From: Ylistrum balloti
Taxonomy: Eukaryota
Direction of reading: 5' to 3'
Length of the DNA: 64,000 nucleotides
NCBI RefSeq assembly: GCF_031769215.1
Contig: NW_026782179.1
Span: 2,108,001 to 2,172,000, forward strand
Shown here: positions 33,001-42,000 of the stretch, piece by piece
Position numbering within the stretch: the first letter of the stretch is position 1
How the letters are laid out: each line of letters starts with the position of its first letter
Made by a program: the position numbers

Positions 33001-36000
33001 TGATATATAACAATATTTTGTTAACCCAATTCAGCCCCATTCCCAATACAAAAAAATAATACCCAATTTTTACCTAAAATCCCCAATTTGAAAATGTGAA
33101 AATAAATATTTGTATTAATGAGTGTTAAAGACAGTGATTTGAGTTGTGTAAAGGGCATGTCTGCGCATGTCAGACCTACATAGAAAGTATCCTGTTTTTT
33201 TCCCCCGTAATTTAATTTTCATCATATGTCTAAAGTTACTACATCAGTGAAGCATGAGCGCTTAGGACTAGGAAGCCAACAGTAAAGCATTTAAGTGATC
33301 AAACAACATGTTTAAACAACACAAAATATGTCAGTTCATACACTGGGTGATCTTGTAGCTTTAAGTAAGGCATAACAAGGTGTTAAATTGGCCCAAGTTG
33401 AACTAAAAGTTCTTCTGAATTTCCTCTTTATATATACCAAGGATGGTCTGCTGTATTATGCCTTTGCCACATGGCTAATTCTGATGACTTAAGATTATGA
33501 TATATGACAAAGTTTGTGTAAAAAAATTACACTGACCCTTATTCAAGTTCACTAGGGTCAAATTAGTTGAATCCTTATTCTGAATTATTAAAAGGCACCG
33601 AAGTAAGATATTTGGCTGAAATGTTTTTAGTACAAGTCTTGACAATGTTTTTGAAAAGAAATGACCTTGACCTATATTCAAGGCCATAGTAATTGAATTT
33701 GTTAGCACTTTAAAAAACTTATTTTGATTAACCAAAAAGCACAGAGGCGTTGTATTTGGCTGGTAGGTTCTAAGAATTACTCCCCACAAATACTTTGAAA
33801 GGTCATTGACCTATATTTTGACCTTTGACCCCTTCAAAGGAAAGTTTGTTTGGATTCTATCTTTTAAACATCTAGTCATGGAAACTTGATGCTTAGGACA
33901 TGGGTTAACCTTGGTAAGACAACTTGTTATGTATAAAAAGTAGGCTACTCTGACCTAGTTATATTTGACTTTCAACCTATAGCTACAGCAAAACAGAATT
34001 GTCCAGGCTCTATCTCTTACATCACTTGTCACTTGAACTTCATATCTCTTACATCACTTATCACTTGAACTTCATATTTGAAATACAGGTTCGTGATAGT
34101 GAATAGCTCTTGTGTATGAAAAGTAGATCACCCTGTCCCACATTTCAACCTTCGACATACTTAAAAAGTTTCTCCTGACTCCTGTCTCCTACACAACTCT
34201 TCAATGGAATTTCATACTTGGGGTATGGGTGTATTCTGGTGAGACAGTTTGTCATGTATCAAAAGTAGGTTACTTCGGACTACATTTCGACCTTTGACCT
34301 AAAGGAAAGAAAAATTTTGACCTGACTTTATCTCCTATAATACTTGTTACTGGAACTTCATACTTGGATTATGGGTTTGCTTCAGTGAGAAGTAAGTTAC
34401 TGTGACCAACTGTTTTCTTTCGACTTGCATCAAAGGAAATGTTTGTCATGATTTTATCTCCTACACTGCTAATCTTGAATGTCATACTTTTGGTTTGGTT
34501 TTACCTGTGTAGGTCAGTGTGTCTGAAGGAGAGTATACTTTGCCAAAATGTCTTGTTTTGATTTGTTTTATTATGAATGAACTAAATGTCAAAGATGTGA
34601 TTTGCTTTGGTATCAATTTTCTGAAGTTTGTGTAGATAATGGTGCTTAATGCATTTCTCCTCTCCTCCTTCAGTTTTGGCGATGAAGAAGTAAAGTATCT
34701 GAATCTAAAAGAAATCCATAGAGAAAATGTTAAAAATTTTCAGGGTTTTTTCTTGTCTGTGATGTTTAGTTTGAAAGCTTCAAATATAGTACACATTGAT
34801 ATGAGAATTATTTTTGCTTTCTGCTTTCAGGATTGTCCCCCACTGGAACCATGACTCATCCACCTAAGAAGAAGCTTTCATTGTCAGAAAGGTTTGGGAC
34901 CATTGGACCTTTAGCTGACTATCGCAATAAGGCTCAGAAAAATTCAGAAATGGTCAGCAAGCTACAGCTGCAAATTACAGAGGTAGTGAGGAAACGCTCG
35001 GAGGGGTATGACAGAGAGTCACAAGCAAAAATGATAAGTAAGGAAATTTCTGATGTGCAACAAAGGTTTGATGATGCTCCTGTTGCCTGTCAAAAGTTCA
35101 CACCATTTAAAGTTGAACTTAGAGTAAACATTGATAAAAAGCATGCTGAGCCCCAAAAGGGCAGTAAGATGAATGAAAAGGCATATTACAATGAAAATTT
35201 GGATACTCCCTTTAAAAGTCAACCGAATAAGACAAGTCCAAGCAAGGGGAATGAGAGTATAGCCAGCCATGTCTCTGTATTGGAACACCATACTCAAAAT
35301 GATTCAGTGTCAAATGGCACTGCAGCAATTATGGCTGTCACAGAAAATGAATCTAAGATGAAGATCAATTTGCAGAAATCCTTAATCCCATGTACAAAGA
35401 CTGAAAAAGATGTGAATATCCAGCCTTTACCTGAATTAAACCAGGACGCTTTATCATCTGAAACACATCAACCTTGTGACGTGAAAGTAAACTCAAATAA
35501 CGCTTGGCTTCAAGGAAATTCTACACACCATTCACCACAAAACGCAGCTGTCAATCTGATATCAGTTGAGGAACAGCAAAAACAGAACCAAAATAGAACC
35601 CAGTGCATCAGAAAGACTCCTCAGTTAGGGAAAGACTGCTGTGATGTAGGAAACTATACAGAACCCAAAAATATGACAAAAGAACCATTTAACAAAGCAA
35701 TCAGTGCAAAACCCATGCTTAGCTTCAATAATGGATATGGTGGAATGAACATGGCAAATCCAAATTCAATGAGAATTCCTCAGTCAGGGAAAGAGAGCTG
35801 TAATGAAGGGAACTATACTGAACCCAAAAATATGGCAAAAGAACCATTTAACAAAGCAATCGGTGCAAAACCCATGCCTAGTTTCAATAATGGGTATGTT
35901 GGAATGAACATTGCAAGTCCAAATTCAATGAGAAGGCAAGGTTCCAATACCAGTCCAAATTACAGCAAGGGGAAATATGCAAAGAAGACAAGTCCAATTT

Positions 36001-39000: not shown

Positions 39001-42000
39001 TCTCTGTTAGAAGGACAAACAGAATTGACTACTCTTGTGCAAATATTTACTTGTCACATTCCTATAAAAGGGACACTGTTGTGTACAACTGTGACAAACA
39101 ATGTGAGAGTTATGAAAACCAATTCCTAGAGAGGAATGAGCATGACAGGTGGAACAGAGAGAGACATTCTATGTCACCTGGTACTTGCAGGTATTTGAAA
39201 AGGAGAGATTTAGAGAGGAAGAGCTCTCCTCCATCTTCTGGGAATAGAAATGTATCCAGAAATAGGTACCAAGGTAGAAGGAATCGGAACTATTCTGAAG
39301 GCAGTGATTATCCAGAATTGTGCTTTTCTCCCTTGCGATAAACCCAAGGAGAGCAGTGTAGAATTGATAGTACATGTCCGAAGCAAGACTGTCACATTCA
39401 TGTATTTTGTGTATGAGAGTGTCATAACAGACAGACTGCTGCATTTGTTTTCCTGAATGGAGAGATTATCCAGAACCTTGATAACTTTTTTTGCACTGAA
39501 CTCCTACCCTTTTTTTGTGAATACAAGCAGTTTGGTCCATCTGAGATATCTTTGCTTTTTACTGAATATTTGAGATTAAGAACATTTTTTTCTGAAAGAT
39601 TAATATTTCAATCAATGTCATATGACTTGGTACCTTTCTCATACTTGCTGTGGCATATTGAACAAATGATAAAACATTGTATGATAAATAGAGGGTAATA
39701 TAAAACAGTAATTTGGATGAAAACTTTCTGATATTGAATATTCCAACATCTTGTTAAGCATCCCATAATGATTCCAATTTCAAATATAAAGGACTACAGC
39801 CTGTTTGTTGTATAGTGTTACCATTTAATTTAGTTTTTGTATAAGGTCAGATTAAATAATTTTCACAGCTCTACTGTATCTGATCATGATCATAATTTTT
39901 ATGGTCTTCAGACAGAAAACAACAAAATATCCAAATATTATTTGATGTTTTCACGAAAAAATATCTTATCCAGTGAGAAAGCAACAATTTTGCTTTCAGT
40001 ATTTATTCATTCAAATTTGAGCTTTTGTTATTGTTATTTCTTGAAAAGTATTGGATGGACTTTTAGGAATTTCATGTGTAGATCCCCATTGGTCCTTAGT
40101 TGTGTCCAATTGATTTACAACTGATCAGGAAACTAAATGACTGACAGGTGACCATCTTTGATTTTGATTAAAAAGTATGTTAGTGCTATTACTGAGGAGC
40201 ACTGGATAGAACTTTATCAGAATTTGTATGTACCCCAGTATTTTCCCAAATTGGATATGTGGCATTTAAGAATTATTAAAAACAGGAGTGGGTGGAACTT
40301 AGTTCTATTTTGTTTTGATCTGTCTTTCCACAAACTTGTCCAGGATCTGTCTCCTTTTCTACTTGTCATTTGAACTACTTACTTGGGGTATGGGATCACC
40401 TTGGCATTGTTTCATGTATCAGGTCATAGGCCACTGACCTACATTTCAACCTTTGAAATACATCAAAAAGCCAAAGTTTGTTTGGCATATAATATCGCAT
40501 TCATAAGGGTACTGTAATTTTCCCAATTGTCTTGTATTGGTTTAATAGTAGCTGTATTGTACATTTCATTTCCTCTCAAAACTGTATTATATCATCAGAT
40601 GGGATATTTTCAGCATTTTCATATGTAGGTTATCATCTGTCCCTAGTTGTGCCCATTCAATTTTGAGTTTGATCAGTGAATCAAAATGGCTGATAGGCAA
40701 CCATCTTGGATTTTGACAGGTGTAGTTTGTTATAGCTATTTCTTGAGGGGCACTTGCAAGATCATTTTTCAAACTTTCTGTATAAGTTCCCCATATTCCC
40801 AGGTGCCCATTTAATTTTTTTATGCTCAAGAAAACAAAGTGATCAGTCACAGTTTTTTTATTTTGGTATTTGAAGTTTCTTATTGCTATTTCTCTGAAAA
40901 ATATTTGCTAGGTGGTTCTTAGATTACATATGTAGATAAAATATCAGTCTTCAATATAAATATATATTCAAATCACTGAACAATCCTGGTGAGCAATGCA
41001 GGCCCAATGGGGATCTTGTTCACAATATATTAGTGGTGTATCATGTTTGATATCTCTGATGTTTTTCAGCTATTTTAATTTGAATATTTATTGATTATTA
41101 TATAGTGTGCATGTGTTGTCATTTTGTAATTTTATAATGATCCAAAATTACAGTGATGCTAAAAAATTCTCAAAAATCAAAAAAATGCTTCATATATTAT
41201 AGATAGTTTATAAGTTATAAAAACTTGGTAGTATTGATGAATGTACTTATGGATATATTGATGATTGTATTGTTTTTTTTTAAGAAAATTTGATTGTTGT
41301 TAACTGCTGAAGTTGCCACCTGATGTTTTTTATTTGAAATTCCTTTGTGACTTACCTGTTAGGATTTTGCAGGAGATTCTTTATCATATGTGACCAAAAA
41401 AATTCAAAACTGCAACAGTTTTCTTTTCTCATATGTATACACTTGTTCAAGAATTCTTGTGACCATTGCAGACAAGACATCCTGTATCATTCTTAGGTTA
41501 CTGTAAATCATTTTTATTTTGCATAGGATTTATTTTTACGTTGATACGCGTCAATTACGGTTTCAAGTCACTCACAATATTTGTACAAAACAAGTCTGGA
41601 CAGCATTCATTTTATTTTGGTTACTGATATGGGAGTCTCACAGAGTTCTTGTCTCTAATAGCTCATCATTTGTGAATTTAAAGTAGTTTCTAGATAGCTT
41701 CATGAAATAATTGATCATAAATATGTCTGAAGGGATCAGTCTGCAAAATAAAGAAATCGCAAAATCTAAGTGATTAACAGTAATCCAGGGTTTATTTCCA
41801 TGGTCTTTGTTGTACATTCAAAGTATAATAGGAGAGTCTAGAAACATTTCTTTATTATATTTTTGTTATCTTTGTTTATAGATATGTAAGTTCTCTGATA
41901 AACAACAGGATAGCCATGTATTTATGTATGGTACATACATCTGTATATACTGAAATACCATCTAAATGACTGTTGCAGGGAGTTAATGCCAAAGCAAACA

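What the first reader, a model, noticed from the sequence alone, without database searches (positions are those of the whole stretch)
34851..39341. Second giant-exon orphan gene in tandem with the pseudo-PARP gene: possible paralogue or partner
Seen: 11 kb downstream on the same strand is another uninterrupted ~4.5-kb ORF of similar low-complexity composition, also ending in an RS-rich tail. It has an N-terminal KKKLSLSERF (LSLSERF at 34875-34895) and DPR motifs (KDPRS at 38049, SRDPRL at 38520). From memory: SLNERF/TLxERF occurs in CHTOP and BCLAF1/THRAP3, and DPR motifs mediate WDR82 binding in SETD1A/ZC3H4-type termination factors. Inference: this is a nuclear RNA-surveillance protein, either an old duplicate of the neighbour's terminal exon that lost the DUF3715 exons, or a co-regulated partner.
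Basis: partly seen in the sequence, partly recalled or inferred. Interest (0 to 1): 0.65.

Follow-up and report, generated by a model that had tools for sequence, protein, structure and literature searches.

The report
Bivalve orphan protein with WDR82-docking motifs
The 4.5-kb open reading frame is a real scallop gene for a long, mostly unfolded protein found only in bivalves; its one invariant stretch looks like the short motifs that transcription-control proteins use to hold WDR82, and it is not a copy of the neighbouring gene.

Summary
The ORF is real. It runs stop to stop at 34800-39341, with ATG at 34851, giving 1496 aa in one coding exon behind a splice acceptor. The window is Ylistrum balloti (scallop).

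It is not a paralogue of the neighbouring DUF3715 (TASOR-like) gene. BLASTP gave a best E of 0.041, inside a repeat, and hhalign gave 0.19% probability.

It belongs to an unnamed family of 35 proteins. All 13 members that carry an organism name are bivalves. The family has no Pfam domain and no relative in the PDB. AlphaFold2 predicts disorder, with 775 of the last 842 residues below pLDDT 50.

One linear module is conserved across the family: FEGRTLLKGGVxPRH-IP-K, then PxDPR exactly 30 residues after the F, then LPLPxF. Its motif order and spacing match the WDR82-contacting motifs printed for SETD1A (LQDPR...FSLPVPKF) and ZC3H4 (IPLD...LRDPR...VPLSKPSF).

Other conserved features are an N-terminal LSxRF motif, a second DPR and an RS-rich tail.

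Best reading: a lineage-specific WDR82-docking adaptor or competitor in RNA polymerase II termination and RNA surveillance. This rests on motifs only; no binding was tested.

The duplicate idea is rejected. The partner idea remains open.

The parts
34811..34830 (+). Pyrimidine tract and AG splice acceptor 20 nt before the ATG. It implies an upstream 5'-UTR exon, which I did not locate.
   Evidence: Read directly (ttttgctttctgctttcag|g).
34851..39341 (+). Single coding exon: 1496 codons plus a TAA stop.
   Evidence: The exact protein is in the public collection. Full-length colinear orthologue in Mizuhopecten, 1620 aa, 48% identity, 100% query coverage; its start and end align with ours.
34875..34898 (+). 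N-terminal LSLSERFG motif (aa 9-16), preceded by KKK.
   Evidence: A relaxed form, [LF][SNL]xRF within the first 100 aa, occurs in 31 of 35 family members.
34851..35114 (+). Conserved N-terminal region (aa 1-88), including the motif and a charged stretch that looks helical by eye.
   Evidence: 47-54% mean identity to the other pectinids per 30-aa block, against 7-27% for aa 91-390.
35618..35934 (+). Tandem duplication of a 159-nt (53-aa) unit, 2.0 copies.
   Evidence: Tandem Repeats Finder, 90% matches.
35985..36449 (+). Array of 36-nt (12-aa) repeats encoding (K)TSPNFNKGKGx. It is pectinid-type and expanded to different lengths in the orthologues.
37626..37784 (+). Predicted helical hairpin (aa 926-978) containing EETELVSTLLTQCQAMAQKDDDKQALHTIFNIIHQE. 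It is the only confidently helical element.
   Evidence: AlphaFold2 on A3: helices 17-37 and 41-57, pLDDT 72-81. The same helices appear in the A2 model. Conserved across the family.
37959..38012 (+). Invariant core FEGRTLLKGGVKPRHIPK (aa 1037-1054), with IP at +15/+16.
   Evidence: FEGRTLLKG is present in 35 of 35 family members and [IV]P at +15 in 35 of 35. The model shows it extended with no secondary structure, pLDDT 63-71.
38049..38057 (+). DPR no. 1 (aa 1067-1069, context PPKDPR), exactly 30 residues after the F of the core.
   Evidence: DPR at +30 in 29 of 35 members; the other 6 have DRR.
38109..38129 (+). LPLPPFF (aa 1087-1093), an LxxP-type element 20 residues after the D of DPR no. 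1.
   Evidence: The strict pattern [LIVM]P[LIVM]Px1-2[FW] (or a K variant) occurs in 24 of 35 members and a relaxed pattern in 29 of 35; 6 oyster-type members lack it. Compare SETD1A 74-FSLPVPKF-81 as printed in PMC12187157.
38520..38528 (+). DPR no. 2 (aa 1224-1226, context SRDPRLRATSISKK).
   Evidence: Invariant in 4 of 4 pectinids. A further DPR downstream of the module occurs in 20 of 35 family members.
38913..38978 (+). RS run RYSRFSSERSLSRSRSSSRSRD (aa 1355-1376).
   Evidence: 86% mean identity among pectinids in the block aa 1351-1380.
39171..39338 (+). Conserved basic C-terminal end (aa 1441-1496: ...CRYLKRRDLERK...NRYQGRRNRNYSEGSDYPE...SPLR).
   Evidence: 80-83% identity among pectinids. 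Predicted helices at aa 1418-1457 have low confidence.
18200..24051 (+). Context only: the neighbouring DUF3715 (TASOR-like) gene, Ylistrum balloti LOC132551652. Its last exon is 19519-24051.
   Evidence: 100% identity to the 1707-aa record carrying PF12509; exon hits found by tblastn; DUF3715, E 6.6e-15.

Best explanation
This is the single coding exon of an expressed-looking, conserved scallop gene. It encodes a 1496-aa, almost wholly disordered, probably nuclear protein. The protein belongs to an unnamed family seen so far only in bivalves.

The family is held together by short linear motifs rather than by a folded domain. Its signature is a linear module of about 57 residues: FEGRTLLKGGVxPRH-IP-K, then PxDPR exactly 30 residues after the F, then [LIV]P[LM]Px[FW] 13-20 residues further on.

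I propose (inferred) that this module lies across the WD40 protein WDR82 in the way predicted for SETD1A and ZC3H4. The DPR would sit in the DPR pocket and LPLPxF in the LxxP groove. The protein would then either recruit WDR82, with its PP1-PNUTS or termination partners, to RNA or chromatin, or compete with SET1 and restrictor for WDR82.

The N-terminal LSxRF motif, the second DPR, the lysine/asparagine-rich repeats and the RS tail would supply further contacts with RNA or mRNP proteins (inferred).

Shown: the gene, the family, the disorder, and the motifs with their conservation and spacing. Inferred: nuclear location, WDR82 binding and the pathway.
For: Gene and family.
- ORF and start codon.
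- Pectinid orthologues: 3 besides the query itself, out of 5466 candidates, colinear end to end.
- An exhaustive HMMER search of 1.84 billion representatives with the pectinid C-terminal profile gave 23 hits at E <= 1e-3. Twenty were non-pectinid, and their best-scoring stretches almost all fell within about profile positions 270-710. P0025, a repeat match at positions 82-156, was dropped later.
- A core-profile search gave 35 proteins. All 13 with an organism name are bivalves: Dreissena, Mercenaria, Potamilus, Ruditapes, Mactra, three Mytilus, two Saccostrea and three pectinids.

Disorder.
- Pfam finds nothing in P0001 above its cut-off, or in 7 of 7 relatives scanned.
- AlphaFold2 on the last 842 aa: mean pLDDT 34.8, with 775 of 842 residues below 50.
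- AlphaFold2 on the core: pTM 0.23, one helical hairpin, and the motif region extended.

Module conservation.
- Core present in 35 of 35 members.
- IP or VP at +15 in 35 of 35.
- DPR at +30 in 29 of 35.
- LxxP-like element in 24 of 35 (strict pattern) or 29 of 35 (relaxed pattern).

Chance.
- 0 of 20,000 shuffles of P0001 contain DPR-x8-25-[LIVM]P[LIVM]Px1-2[FW].
- That pattern occurs once in the six-frame translation of the window, here.

Literature.
- DPR is required for WDR82 binding by SET1A: the DPR/AAA mutant loses the co-IP (passages of PMC9911701).
- The same holds for S. pombe Symplekin, with a crystal structure. That paper states the motif is used by SET1A and ZC3H4 (passages of PMC13710762).
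- PMC12187157 (section 9 read in full) prints the AlphaFold-predicted WDR82 contacts. These are ZC3H4 939-IPLD-942, 949-LRDPR-953 and 966-VPLSKPSF, and SETD1A 60-LQDPR-64 and 74-FSLPVPKF-81, with the consensus hydrophobic-x-L-x-x-P-x1-2-aromatic.
- Family members carry ISLPLPKF, LTLPLPKF and LVLPLPKF 13-15 residues after the D. In SETD1A the distance from D62 to L76 is 14.
Against: - No binding was tested. No WDR82 sequence could be obtained.
- The published LxxP and IPLD motifs are themselves AlphaFold predictions, not solved contacts.
- The residue two before DPR is P in this family (PxDPR), not the L of the published LxDPR.
- In the window's own protein the hydrophobic first position of the LxxP consensus is K (KDLPLPPF), so it fits the core of the motif but not the full consensus.
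- The IPLD resemblance is only the dipeptide IP.
- Six Mytilus-type members have DRR instead of DPR, and six oyster-type members lack the LxxP-like element. Neither element is therefore indispensable to the family.
- The most invariant part, FEGRTLLKGGVxPRH, has no counterpart among the published WDR82 motifs and may bind something else.
- Nuclear location is inferred only from basic clusters and the RS tail.
Confidence: 0.45

Rival explanations
1. The conserved module binds some partner other than WDR82, such as another WD40 protein, an importin or a phosphatase. The protein would then be a generic disordered, SR-like nuclear scaffold, and its DPR and LPLPxF elements would resemble the WDR82 motifs by coincidence.
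For: The most invariant stretch, FEGRTLLKGGVxPRH (35 of 35 members), matches no published WDR82 motif. PxDPR departs from LxDPR. DPR is replaced by DRR in 6 of 35 members and the LxxP-like element is missing in 6 of 35. Short motifs are degenerate.
Against: The fixed +30 spacing of DPR (29 of 35 members), the SETD1A-like distance to LPLPxF, and near-identity of ISLPLPKF and LTLPLPKF to the printed FSLPVPKF. 0 of 20,000 shuffles give the pair.
Confidence: 0.35
2. The protein is a physical partner of the neighbouring TASOR-like protein. It would be a periphilin-like disordered subunit of a HUSH-like silencing complex, kept next to it in the genome.
For: The two genes are in tandem on the same strand, 10.8 kb apart. 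Their Pecten maximus counterparts lie on one 60.08-Mb contig, with gene numbers 18 apart. Both proteins are long, disordered and end in R/S/D-rich tails. Periphilin's architecture is recalled from memory, not tested.
Against: Pfam finds no periphilin-type (Lge1) domain and no other domain. Adjacency in one genome is weak evidence in animals. True adjacency in other bivalves could not be checked.
Confidence: 0.07
3. The ORF is an old duplicate of the neighbour's giant terminal exon that lost the DUF3715 exons.
For: Similar length (1496 against 1510 codons), same strand, polar composition and an R/S-rich end.
Against: The best BLASTP E-value is 0.041, and that match falls in the NKG repeat. hhalign of the two family alignments gives probability 0.19%, E 0.32. 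The neighbour has no DPR, no FEGRTLLKG core and no DPR...LPLPxF pair. The two families were retrieved by separate searches with no shared hits.
Confidence: 0.02
4. It is not a gene: a chance ORF, a pseudogene or part of a mobile element.
For: No known domain, low complexity and internal tandem repeats.
Against: 1513 open codons in AT-rich DNA. Full-length orthologues in four pectinid genera, and relatives in several bivalve orders that share the invariant core and N-terminal motif. No transposon domain.
Confidence: 0.01

Closest known systems
SETD1A/SETD1B N-terminal WDR82-binding region
   Same: A DPR is followed after a similar gap by an (F/I/L)-x-L-P-(V/L)-P-K-F element. The printed motifs are 60-LQDPR-64 and 74-FSLPVPKF-81. 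Family members have PxDPR, then ISLPLPKF, LTLPLPKF or LVLPLPKF 13-15 residues after the D; the window's protein has DLPLPPFF at 20.
   Different: There is no RRM, N-SET or SET domain (Pfam) and no detectable homology. The residue before x-DPR is P, not L. The module sits two thirds of the way along a disordered protein, not at the N-terminus.
ZC3H4 (restrictor subunit), C-terminal WDR82-binding region
   Same: The three elements come in the same order: IP-containing motif, then xDPR, then LxxP-type motif (939-IPLD, 949-LRDPR, 966-VPLSKPSF). ZC3H4 is also long, arginine-rich and largely unstructured. Some relatives (10 of 35 strict, 14 of 35 with Q allowed) also carry ARS2-type [ED][ED]GE[ILV] motifs. 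Such a motif was also found in ZC3H4 by a motif search (PMC9402713; counts).
   Different: No CCCH zinc fingers. The window's own protein has no EDGEI-type motif. Only IP of IPLD is shared.
PNUTS (PPP1R10) WDR82-binding region
   Same: A long extended peptide that is proposed to zigzag over WDR82 using several short motifs.
   Different: No TFIIS N-terminal domain or zinc finger (Pfam), and I saw no RVxF-type PP1 motif by eye. PNUTS uses WPL/I, LI-like, IPLD and reversed LxxP motifs, not DPR.
CHTOP / ALYREF-type UAP56-binding motif, and the SARNP UAP56-clamping motif
   Same: A short N-terminal LSxRF(G) motif preceded by basic residues. The SARNP consensus printed in PMC12823420 is R/KxxxRAxRFG; KKLSLSERFG shares the first K and the final RFG. 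CHTOP is listed as UBM-bearing.
   Different: The central R-A of the SARNP consensus is absent. G is not conserved across the family, which also has RFA and RFS. The CHTOP motif sequence is recalled from memory and was confirmed by no call (one search found nothing usable).
TASOR / DUF3715 family (the neighbour)
   Same: A giant exon of similar length, disordered, with an R/S-rich end, lying adjacent on the same strand.
   Different: No DUF3715 and no alignable sequence.

Membership tests
TASOR / DUF3715 family | DUF3715 (pseudo-PARP) domain, PF12509 | tested here: not met
   Pfam scan of P0001 finds no such domain. The neighbour P0006 scores E 6.6e-15.
TASOR / DUF3715 family | Sequence similarity to the neighbour's long C-terminal exon | tested here: not met
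   BLASTP best E 0.041, in a repeat. hhalign probability 0.19%.
WDR82-binding SLiM proteins (SET1A/B, ZC3H4, PNUTS, S. pombe Symplekin) | Conserved DPR tripeptide | tested here: met
   Two DPR, both invariant in 4 of 4 pectinids. DPR at +30 from the core in 29 of 35 family members. Expected number 0.25.
WDR82-binding SLiM proteins (SET1A/B, ZC3H4, PNUTS, S. pombe Symplekin) | LxDPR form (L two residues before D), as printed for ZC3H4 and SETD1A | tested here: not met
   The family has PxDPR at site 1 (33 of 35 members have P there). The window's site 2 is SRDPR.
WDR82-binding SLiM proteins (SET1A/B, ZC3H4, PNUTS, S. pombe Symplekin) | LxxP motif: hydrophobic-x-L-x-x-P-x1-2-(F/W), downstream of DPR | tested here: inconclusive
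   P0001 has KDLPLPPF: the L, P and aromatic positions fit, but the first position is K. Several relatives fit fully (LTLPLPKF, LVLPLPKF, VKLQLPDF). Strict pattern 24 of 35, relaxed 29 of 35.
WDR82-binding SLiM proteins (SET1A/B, ZC3H4, PNUTS, S. pombe Symplekin) | IPLD motif | tested here: inconclusive
   Only [IV]P is shared (RHIPK), though it is present in 35 of 35 members, 15 residues before DPR.
WDR82-binding SLiM proteins (SET1A/B, ZC3H4, PNUTS, S. pombe Symplekin) | Physical, DPR-dependent binding to WDR82 | not testable with these tools
ZC3H4 / Su(s) family | CCCH zinc fingers | tested here: not met
   No Pfam hit.
SET1 histone methyltransferases | RRM, N-SET and SET domains | tested here: not met
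   No Pfam hit.
ARS2-binding proteins (Red1, ZFC3H1, FLASH; a candidate motif also in ZC3H4) | [ED][ED]GE[ILV] motif | tested here: not met
   None in P0001 or in any pectinid, oyster-type or mussel-type member. Present in 10 of 35 relatives (14 of 35 if Q is allowed), with 0.01-0.04 expected per protein.
SARNP-type UAP56-clamping motif | R/KxxxRAxRFG | tested here: not met
   KKLSLSERFG matches K...RFG but lacks the central R-A.
CHTOP/ALYREF-type UAP56-binding motif | Short N-terminal helix motif that binds UAP56/DDX39B | not tested
   The resemblance to the CHTOP motif is recalled only. Conservation of LSxRF in 31 of 35 members is shown; binding is not.
Classical SR proteins | RRM plus RS domain | tested here: not met
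   An RS run is present (aa 1355-1376) but there is no RRM.

The most novel reading that the evidence does not exclude
Bivalves have evolved their own zinc-finger-less, restrictor-like adaptor. It would be a disordered protein that grips WDR82 with a SET1A/ZC3H4-type DPR + LxxP module and reaches RNA-export or decay machinery through an N-terminal UAP56-type motif (plus ARS2-type EDGEI motifs in clams and freshwater mussels). In scallops it sits beside a TASOR-like gene because the two act together in co-transcriptional silencing of transposons or other unwanted transcripts.
Probability: 0.1. Interest if true: 0.75.

Novelty: new variant of a known kind. Interest (0 to 1): 0.5.

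Why it matters
WDR82 is a hub that is shared, competitively, by SET1 (promoting transcription), restrictor/ZC3H4 and PP1-PNUTS (ending it). The rules of this 'WDR82 code' are currently being worked out from very few partners.

A whole animal class carrying an extra, unrelated protein with the same motif grammar would be a natural experiment. It would show how such hubs acquire new clients by motif evolution in disordered proteins.

It would also give a first functional handle on a family that every genome annotation calls 'uncharacterized', or in one case 'titin homolog'.

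It is also a caution: two adjacent giant-exon genes that look alike to the eye are not paralogues.

Tried and rejected
- **Pfam.** On P0001 the only hit was a sub-threshold Calci_bind_CcbP match, 18.2 bits against a cut-off of 21.5. On 7 relatives it found nothing.
- **PDB sequence searches.** The full-length profile gave only a repeat-driven E 0.035 hit. The core profile gave nothing below E 0.9.
- **ESM Atlas.** No usable hit, and the Atlas holds no model of this protein.
- **Comparison with the neighbour.** BLASTP and hhalign were negative, so the paralogue idea is rejected.
- **Complex prediction.** The core module was tested against three conserved pieces of the TASOR-like neighbour. The tool's verdict was 'no answer' (score 0.01, mark 0.34). 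This is evidence neither for nor against binding. The job was unlike the tool's calibration set because one protein was split into three chains and the partner is disordered.
- **The listing of cluster members.** I asked for accession numbers as a proxy for adjacency.
- **Paper searches with no usable result:**
  - SARNP + DDX39B + RFG: 0 papers.
  - GRTLLKGG: 0 papers.
  - SLNERF: only an OCR artefact.
  - WDR82 with bivalve words at min_terms 2: badly designed, and none of the 10 listed papers holds WDR82.
  - WDR82 + bivalve: 0 papers.
  - TASOR + mollusc: 4 papers, none judged relevant from the listing.
- **Rfam on the whole window.** 0 matches.
- **Fold searches.** Not run, because both models have pTM of 0.23 or less.
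- **PP1 motifs.** I considered an RVxF/SILK reading of the core by eye and dropped it because the pattern does not fit.
- **Row dropped from the family.** P0025 matched through 12 repeat stretches and has neither the core nor any DPR.
- **Row kept out of the counts.** P0028 is a 94-aa fragment that does carry the module.

Full report
**The observation.** The frame 34800..39341 (+) is open for 1513 codons. From ATG 34851 it encodes 1496 aa (P0001). A pyrimidine tract and AG end at 34830, 20 nt before the ATG. The coding sequence is therefore one exon preceded by an untranslated exon that I did not locate. No exon joining was needed or done for this gene. The exact 1496-aa protein is already in the public protein collection. 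The window is from the scallop Ylistrum balloti: the neighbouring ORF is 100% identical to that species' LOC132551652 (lineage). It is not human sequence. The run of N near 8.7 kb (seen as X) was left untouched.

**Relation to the neighbour.** It carries DUF3715. Its giant exon and ours do not align. The best BLASTP E-value is 0.041, inside the NKG repeat. Profile-profile hhalign of a 4-pectinid alignment (A1) against a 3-sequence alignment of the neighbour (A4) gives probability 0.19%, E 0.32. The neighbour has no DPR. The 'old duplicate' idea is therefore rejected at the sensitivity available. For 'partner' I have only two facts. The genes are in tandem here. Their Pecten maximus counterparts (LOC117336290, LOC117336308) lie on one 60.08-Mb contig.

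**The family.** The word-indexed search found 3 relatives, all pectinids, among 5466 candidates: Mizuhopecten, Pecten and Argopecten, at 44-53% identity. They are colinear from the first Met to the last residue, except for one mis-modelled N-terminus. An exhaustive HMMER search of 1.84 billion representatives with the profile of the last 842 aa (A2) gave 23 hits at E <= 1e-3. Three were pectinids. The 20 others mostly matched within about profile positions 270-710. I dropped one of them (P0025, a repeat match with no core) and set aside a 94-aa fragment (P0028). A profile of that core from 10 diverse members (A3), searched among longer proteins, returned 35 proteins. Thirteen have an organism name, and all thirteen are bivalves. 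They span Pteriomorphia (scallops, mussels, oysters), Imparidentia (Mercenaria, Ruditapes, Mactra, Dreissena) and Unionida (Potamilus); these group names are from my own knowledge. Every source calls the proteins uncharacterized or hypothetical, except one automatic 'titin homolog'. None has a precomputed Pfam domain.

**No fold, only motifs.** Pfam finds nothing. The PDB and the ESM Atlas give nothing. AlphaFold2 on the last 842 aa gives mean pLDDT 34.8, with 775 of 842 residues under 50. On the 184-aa core it gives pTM 0.23, with one helical hairpin (aa 938-978, pLDDT 72-81), short helices around LPLPPFFIEFV, and an extended FEGR...DPR stretch. Pectinid conservation comes in islands:
- the N-terminal 90 aa;
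- the hairpin;
- the core (78-86% identity);
- ISPILPRITVR and SRDPRLRATSISKK;
- the RS run (86%);
- the basic C-terminal end (80-83%).

Between these islands lie poorly conserved polar sequence and lineage-specific repeats: a 159-nt duplication and a 36-nt array encoding SPNFNKGKG.

**The signature module.** Across all 35 members the counts are as follows.

| Feature | Members with it |
|---|---|
| FEGRTLLKG core | 35 of 35 |
| [IV]P at +15 | 35 of 35 |
| DPR exactly at +30 | 29 of 35 (the other 6, Mytilus-type, have DRR) |
| [LIV]P[LM]Px[FW] 13-20 residues after the D | 24 of 35 strict, 29 of 35 relaxed (6 oyster-type members lack it) |
| A further DPR downstream | 20 of 35 |
| N-terminal [LF][SNL]xRF | 31 of 35 (the 4 misses are a mis-modelled start, a truncated start, a fragment and an MSRRF variant) |

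In P0001 the module is aa 1037-1093. None of 20,000 shuffles of P0001 contains DPR-x8-25-[LIVM]P[LIVM]Px1-2[FW]. In the six-frame translation of the whole window the pattern occurs once, here, and only 3 DPR occur at all.

**What the module resembles.**
- Passages of PMC9911701 show that a conserved DPR in the SET1A N-terminal domain is needed to co-precipitate WDR82.
- Passages of PMC13710762 report a crystal structure in which the DPR of S. pombe Symplekin inserts into a pocket of WDR82. [quoted passage not shown]
- Section 9 of PMC12187157, read in full, prints AlphaFold-predicted contacts. For ZC3H4 these are 939-IPLD-942, 949-LRDPR-953 and 966-VPLSKPSF. For SETD1A they are 60-LQDPR-64 and 74-FSLPVPKF-81. 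The paper defines an LxxP motif as hydrophobic-x-L-x-x-P-x1-2-aromatic.

The bivalve module has the same order (IP..., xDPR, LxxP-type) and similar spacing. The distance from D to the L of the motif is 13-20 residues here, 14 in SETD1A and about 17 in ZC3H4. Some members (ISLPLPKF, LTLPLPKF, LVLPLPKF) differ from SETD1A's FSLPVPKF at only two or three positions.

The departures are these:
- P instead of L two residues before DPR;
- K instead of a hydrophobic residue at the first LxxP position in the scallop protein;
- only IP shared with IPLD;
- the published LxxP and IPLD contacts are predictions, not solved structures.

[quoted passage not shown] It is present in 10 of 35 relatives, or 14 of 35 if Q is allowed, against 0.01-0.04 expected per protein. 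It appears only among the non-pteriomorph-type members. This strengthens the family's link to co-transcriptional RNA fate, but it does not apply to the window's gene itself.

**Mechanism proposed.**
- Shown: a conserved, disordered, motif-built protein.
- Inferred: it is nuclear, from its basic clusters and RS tail.
- Inferred: its module docks on WDR82 as in SETD1A and ZC3H4. It would then either bring WDR82 and its PP1-PNUTS or termination partners to RNA bound by the basic and RS regions, or compete with SET1 and restrictor for WDR82.
- I put this at 0.45.
- The main rival, at 0.35, is that the invariant FEGRTLLKGGVxPRH part defines a different partner and the WDR82 likeness is coincidental.

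**What stayed unchecked.**
- Binding to WDR82 or UAP56, because no eukaryotic reference sequences could be brought in.
- The closed collections metagenome contigs and viral contigs.
- The papers' supplementary alignments.

I found no paper that holds both 'WDR82' and 'bivalve', and none that holds the core string GRTLLKGG.

**Verdict.** The functional guess is supported by conserved motif grammar only. The paralogue idea is rejected and the partner idea remains open. This is a new, lineage-restricted variant of a known kind of protein, the motif-based WDR82 client, and is of moderate interest.

Noticed in passing
window 9362-10354 (+): An intronless-looking 330-codon ORF encodes a rhodopsin-family GPCR (Pfam 7tm_1, E 3.7e-35), upstream of the TASOR-like gene.
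   Followed up: partly
window 58172-59690 (+): Two abutting ORFs. The second (58980-59690) has a GDSL-like lipase/OSK-type domain (E 1.8e-9 and 3.7e-7). It may be the esterase ORF of a retroelement, which is a recollection only; the first ORF has no Pfam hit.
   Followed up: partly
window about 8232-8897: A run of N (assembly gap or masked stretch) is flanked by very simple repeats, which read as Ser/Ile/His runs on the minus strand. It was left untouched.
   Followed up: no
window 12001-14000: Strong negative GC skew (-0.288), unlike any other 2-kb bin of the window. The cause was not examined.
   Followed up: no
window 35618-36449: The scallop gene holds a 159-nt tandem duplication and a 36-nt (12-aa) SPNFNKGKG array. 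The array has different lengths and variants in the four pectinids; Mizuhopecten has far more copies, with NLNKGQGFQTSP units. This is fast repeat evolution inside a conserved gene.
   Followed up: partly
relatives P0010-P0019, P0022, P0030-P0032, P0034 (not in the window): The clam and freshwater-mussel-type members carry 1-4 EDGEI-type (ARS2-binding-like) motifs each, with 0.01-0.04 expected. Some also carry (S/V)HDR(L/I)G repeats. Scallop, oyster and mussel-type members have no EDGEI-type motif.
   Followed up: partly
relatives P0021, P0035-P0039 and P0016, P0020, P0023, P0027, P0040, P0041: Mussel-type members have DRR in place of DPR at +30 but keep LPLPKW. Oyster-type members (about 600-650 aa) keep DPR but replace the LPLPxF element with a YKVL(L/M)WHKDW helix-like stretch. 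The two halves of the module can therefore be lost separately.
   Followed up: partly
window 19519-24051 (neighbour's last exon): The TASOR-like tail has its own strongly conserved islands among three pectinid-type sequences (for example SEATLSKAMTSLLKRVLFDGPRNDGSTE, PWHRTGT.PDNLIIDRHGMIIS) and an R/D/W/Y-rich end. Their function is unknown.
   Followed up: no
P0014: The Mercenaria mercenaria member is auto-named 'titin homolog'. Nothing in its sequence or in Pfam supports that name.
   Followed up: yes
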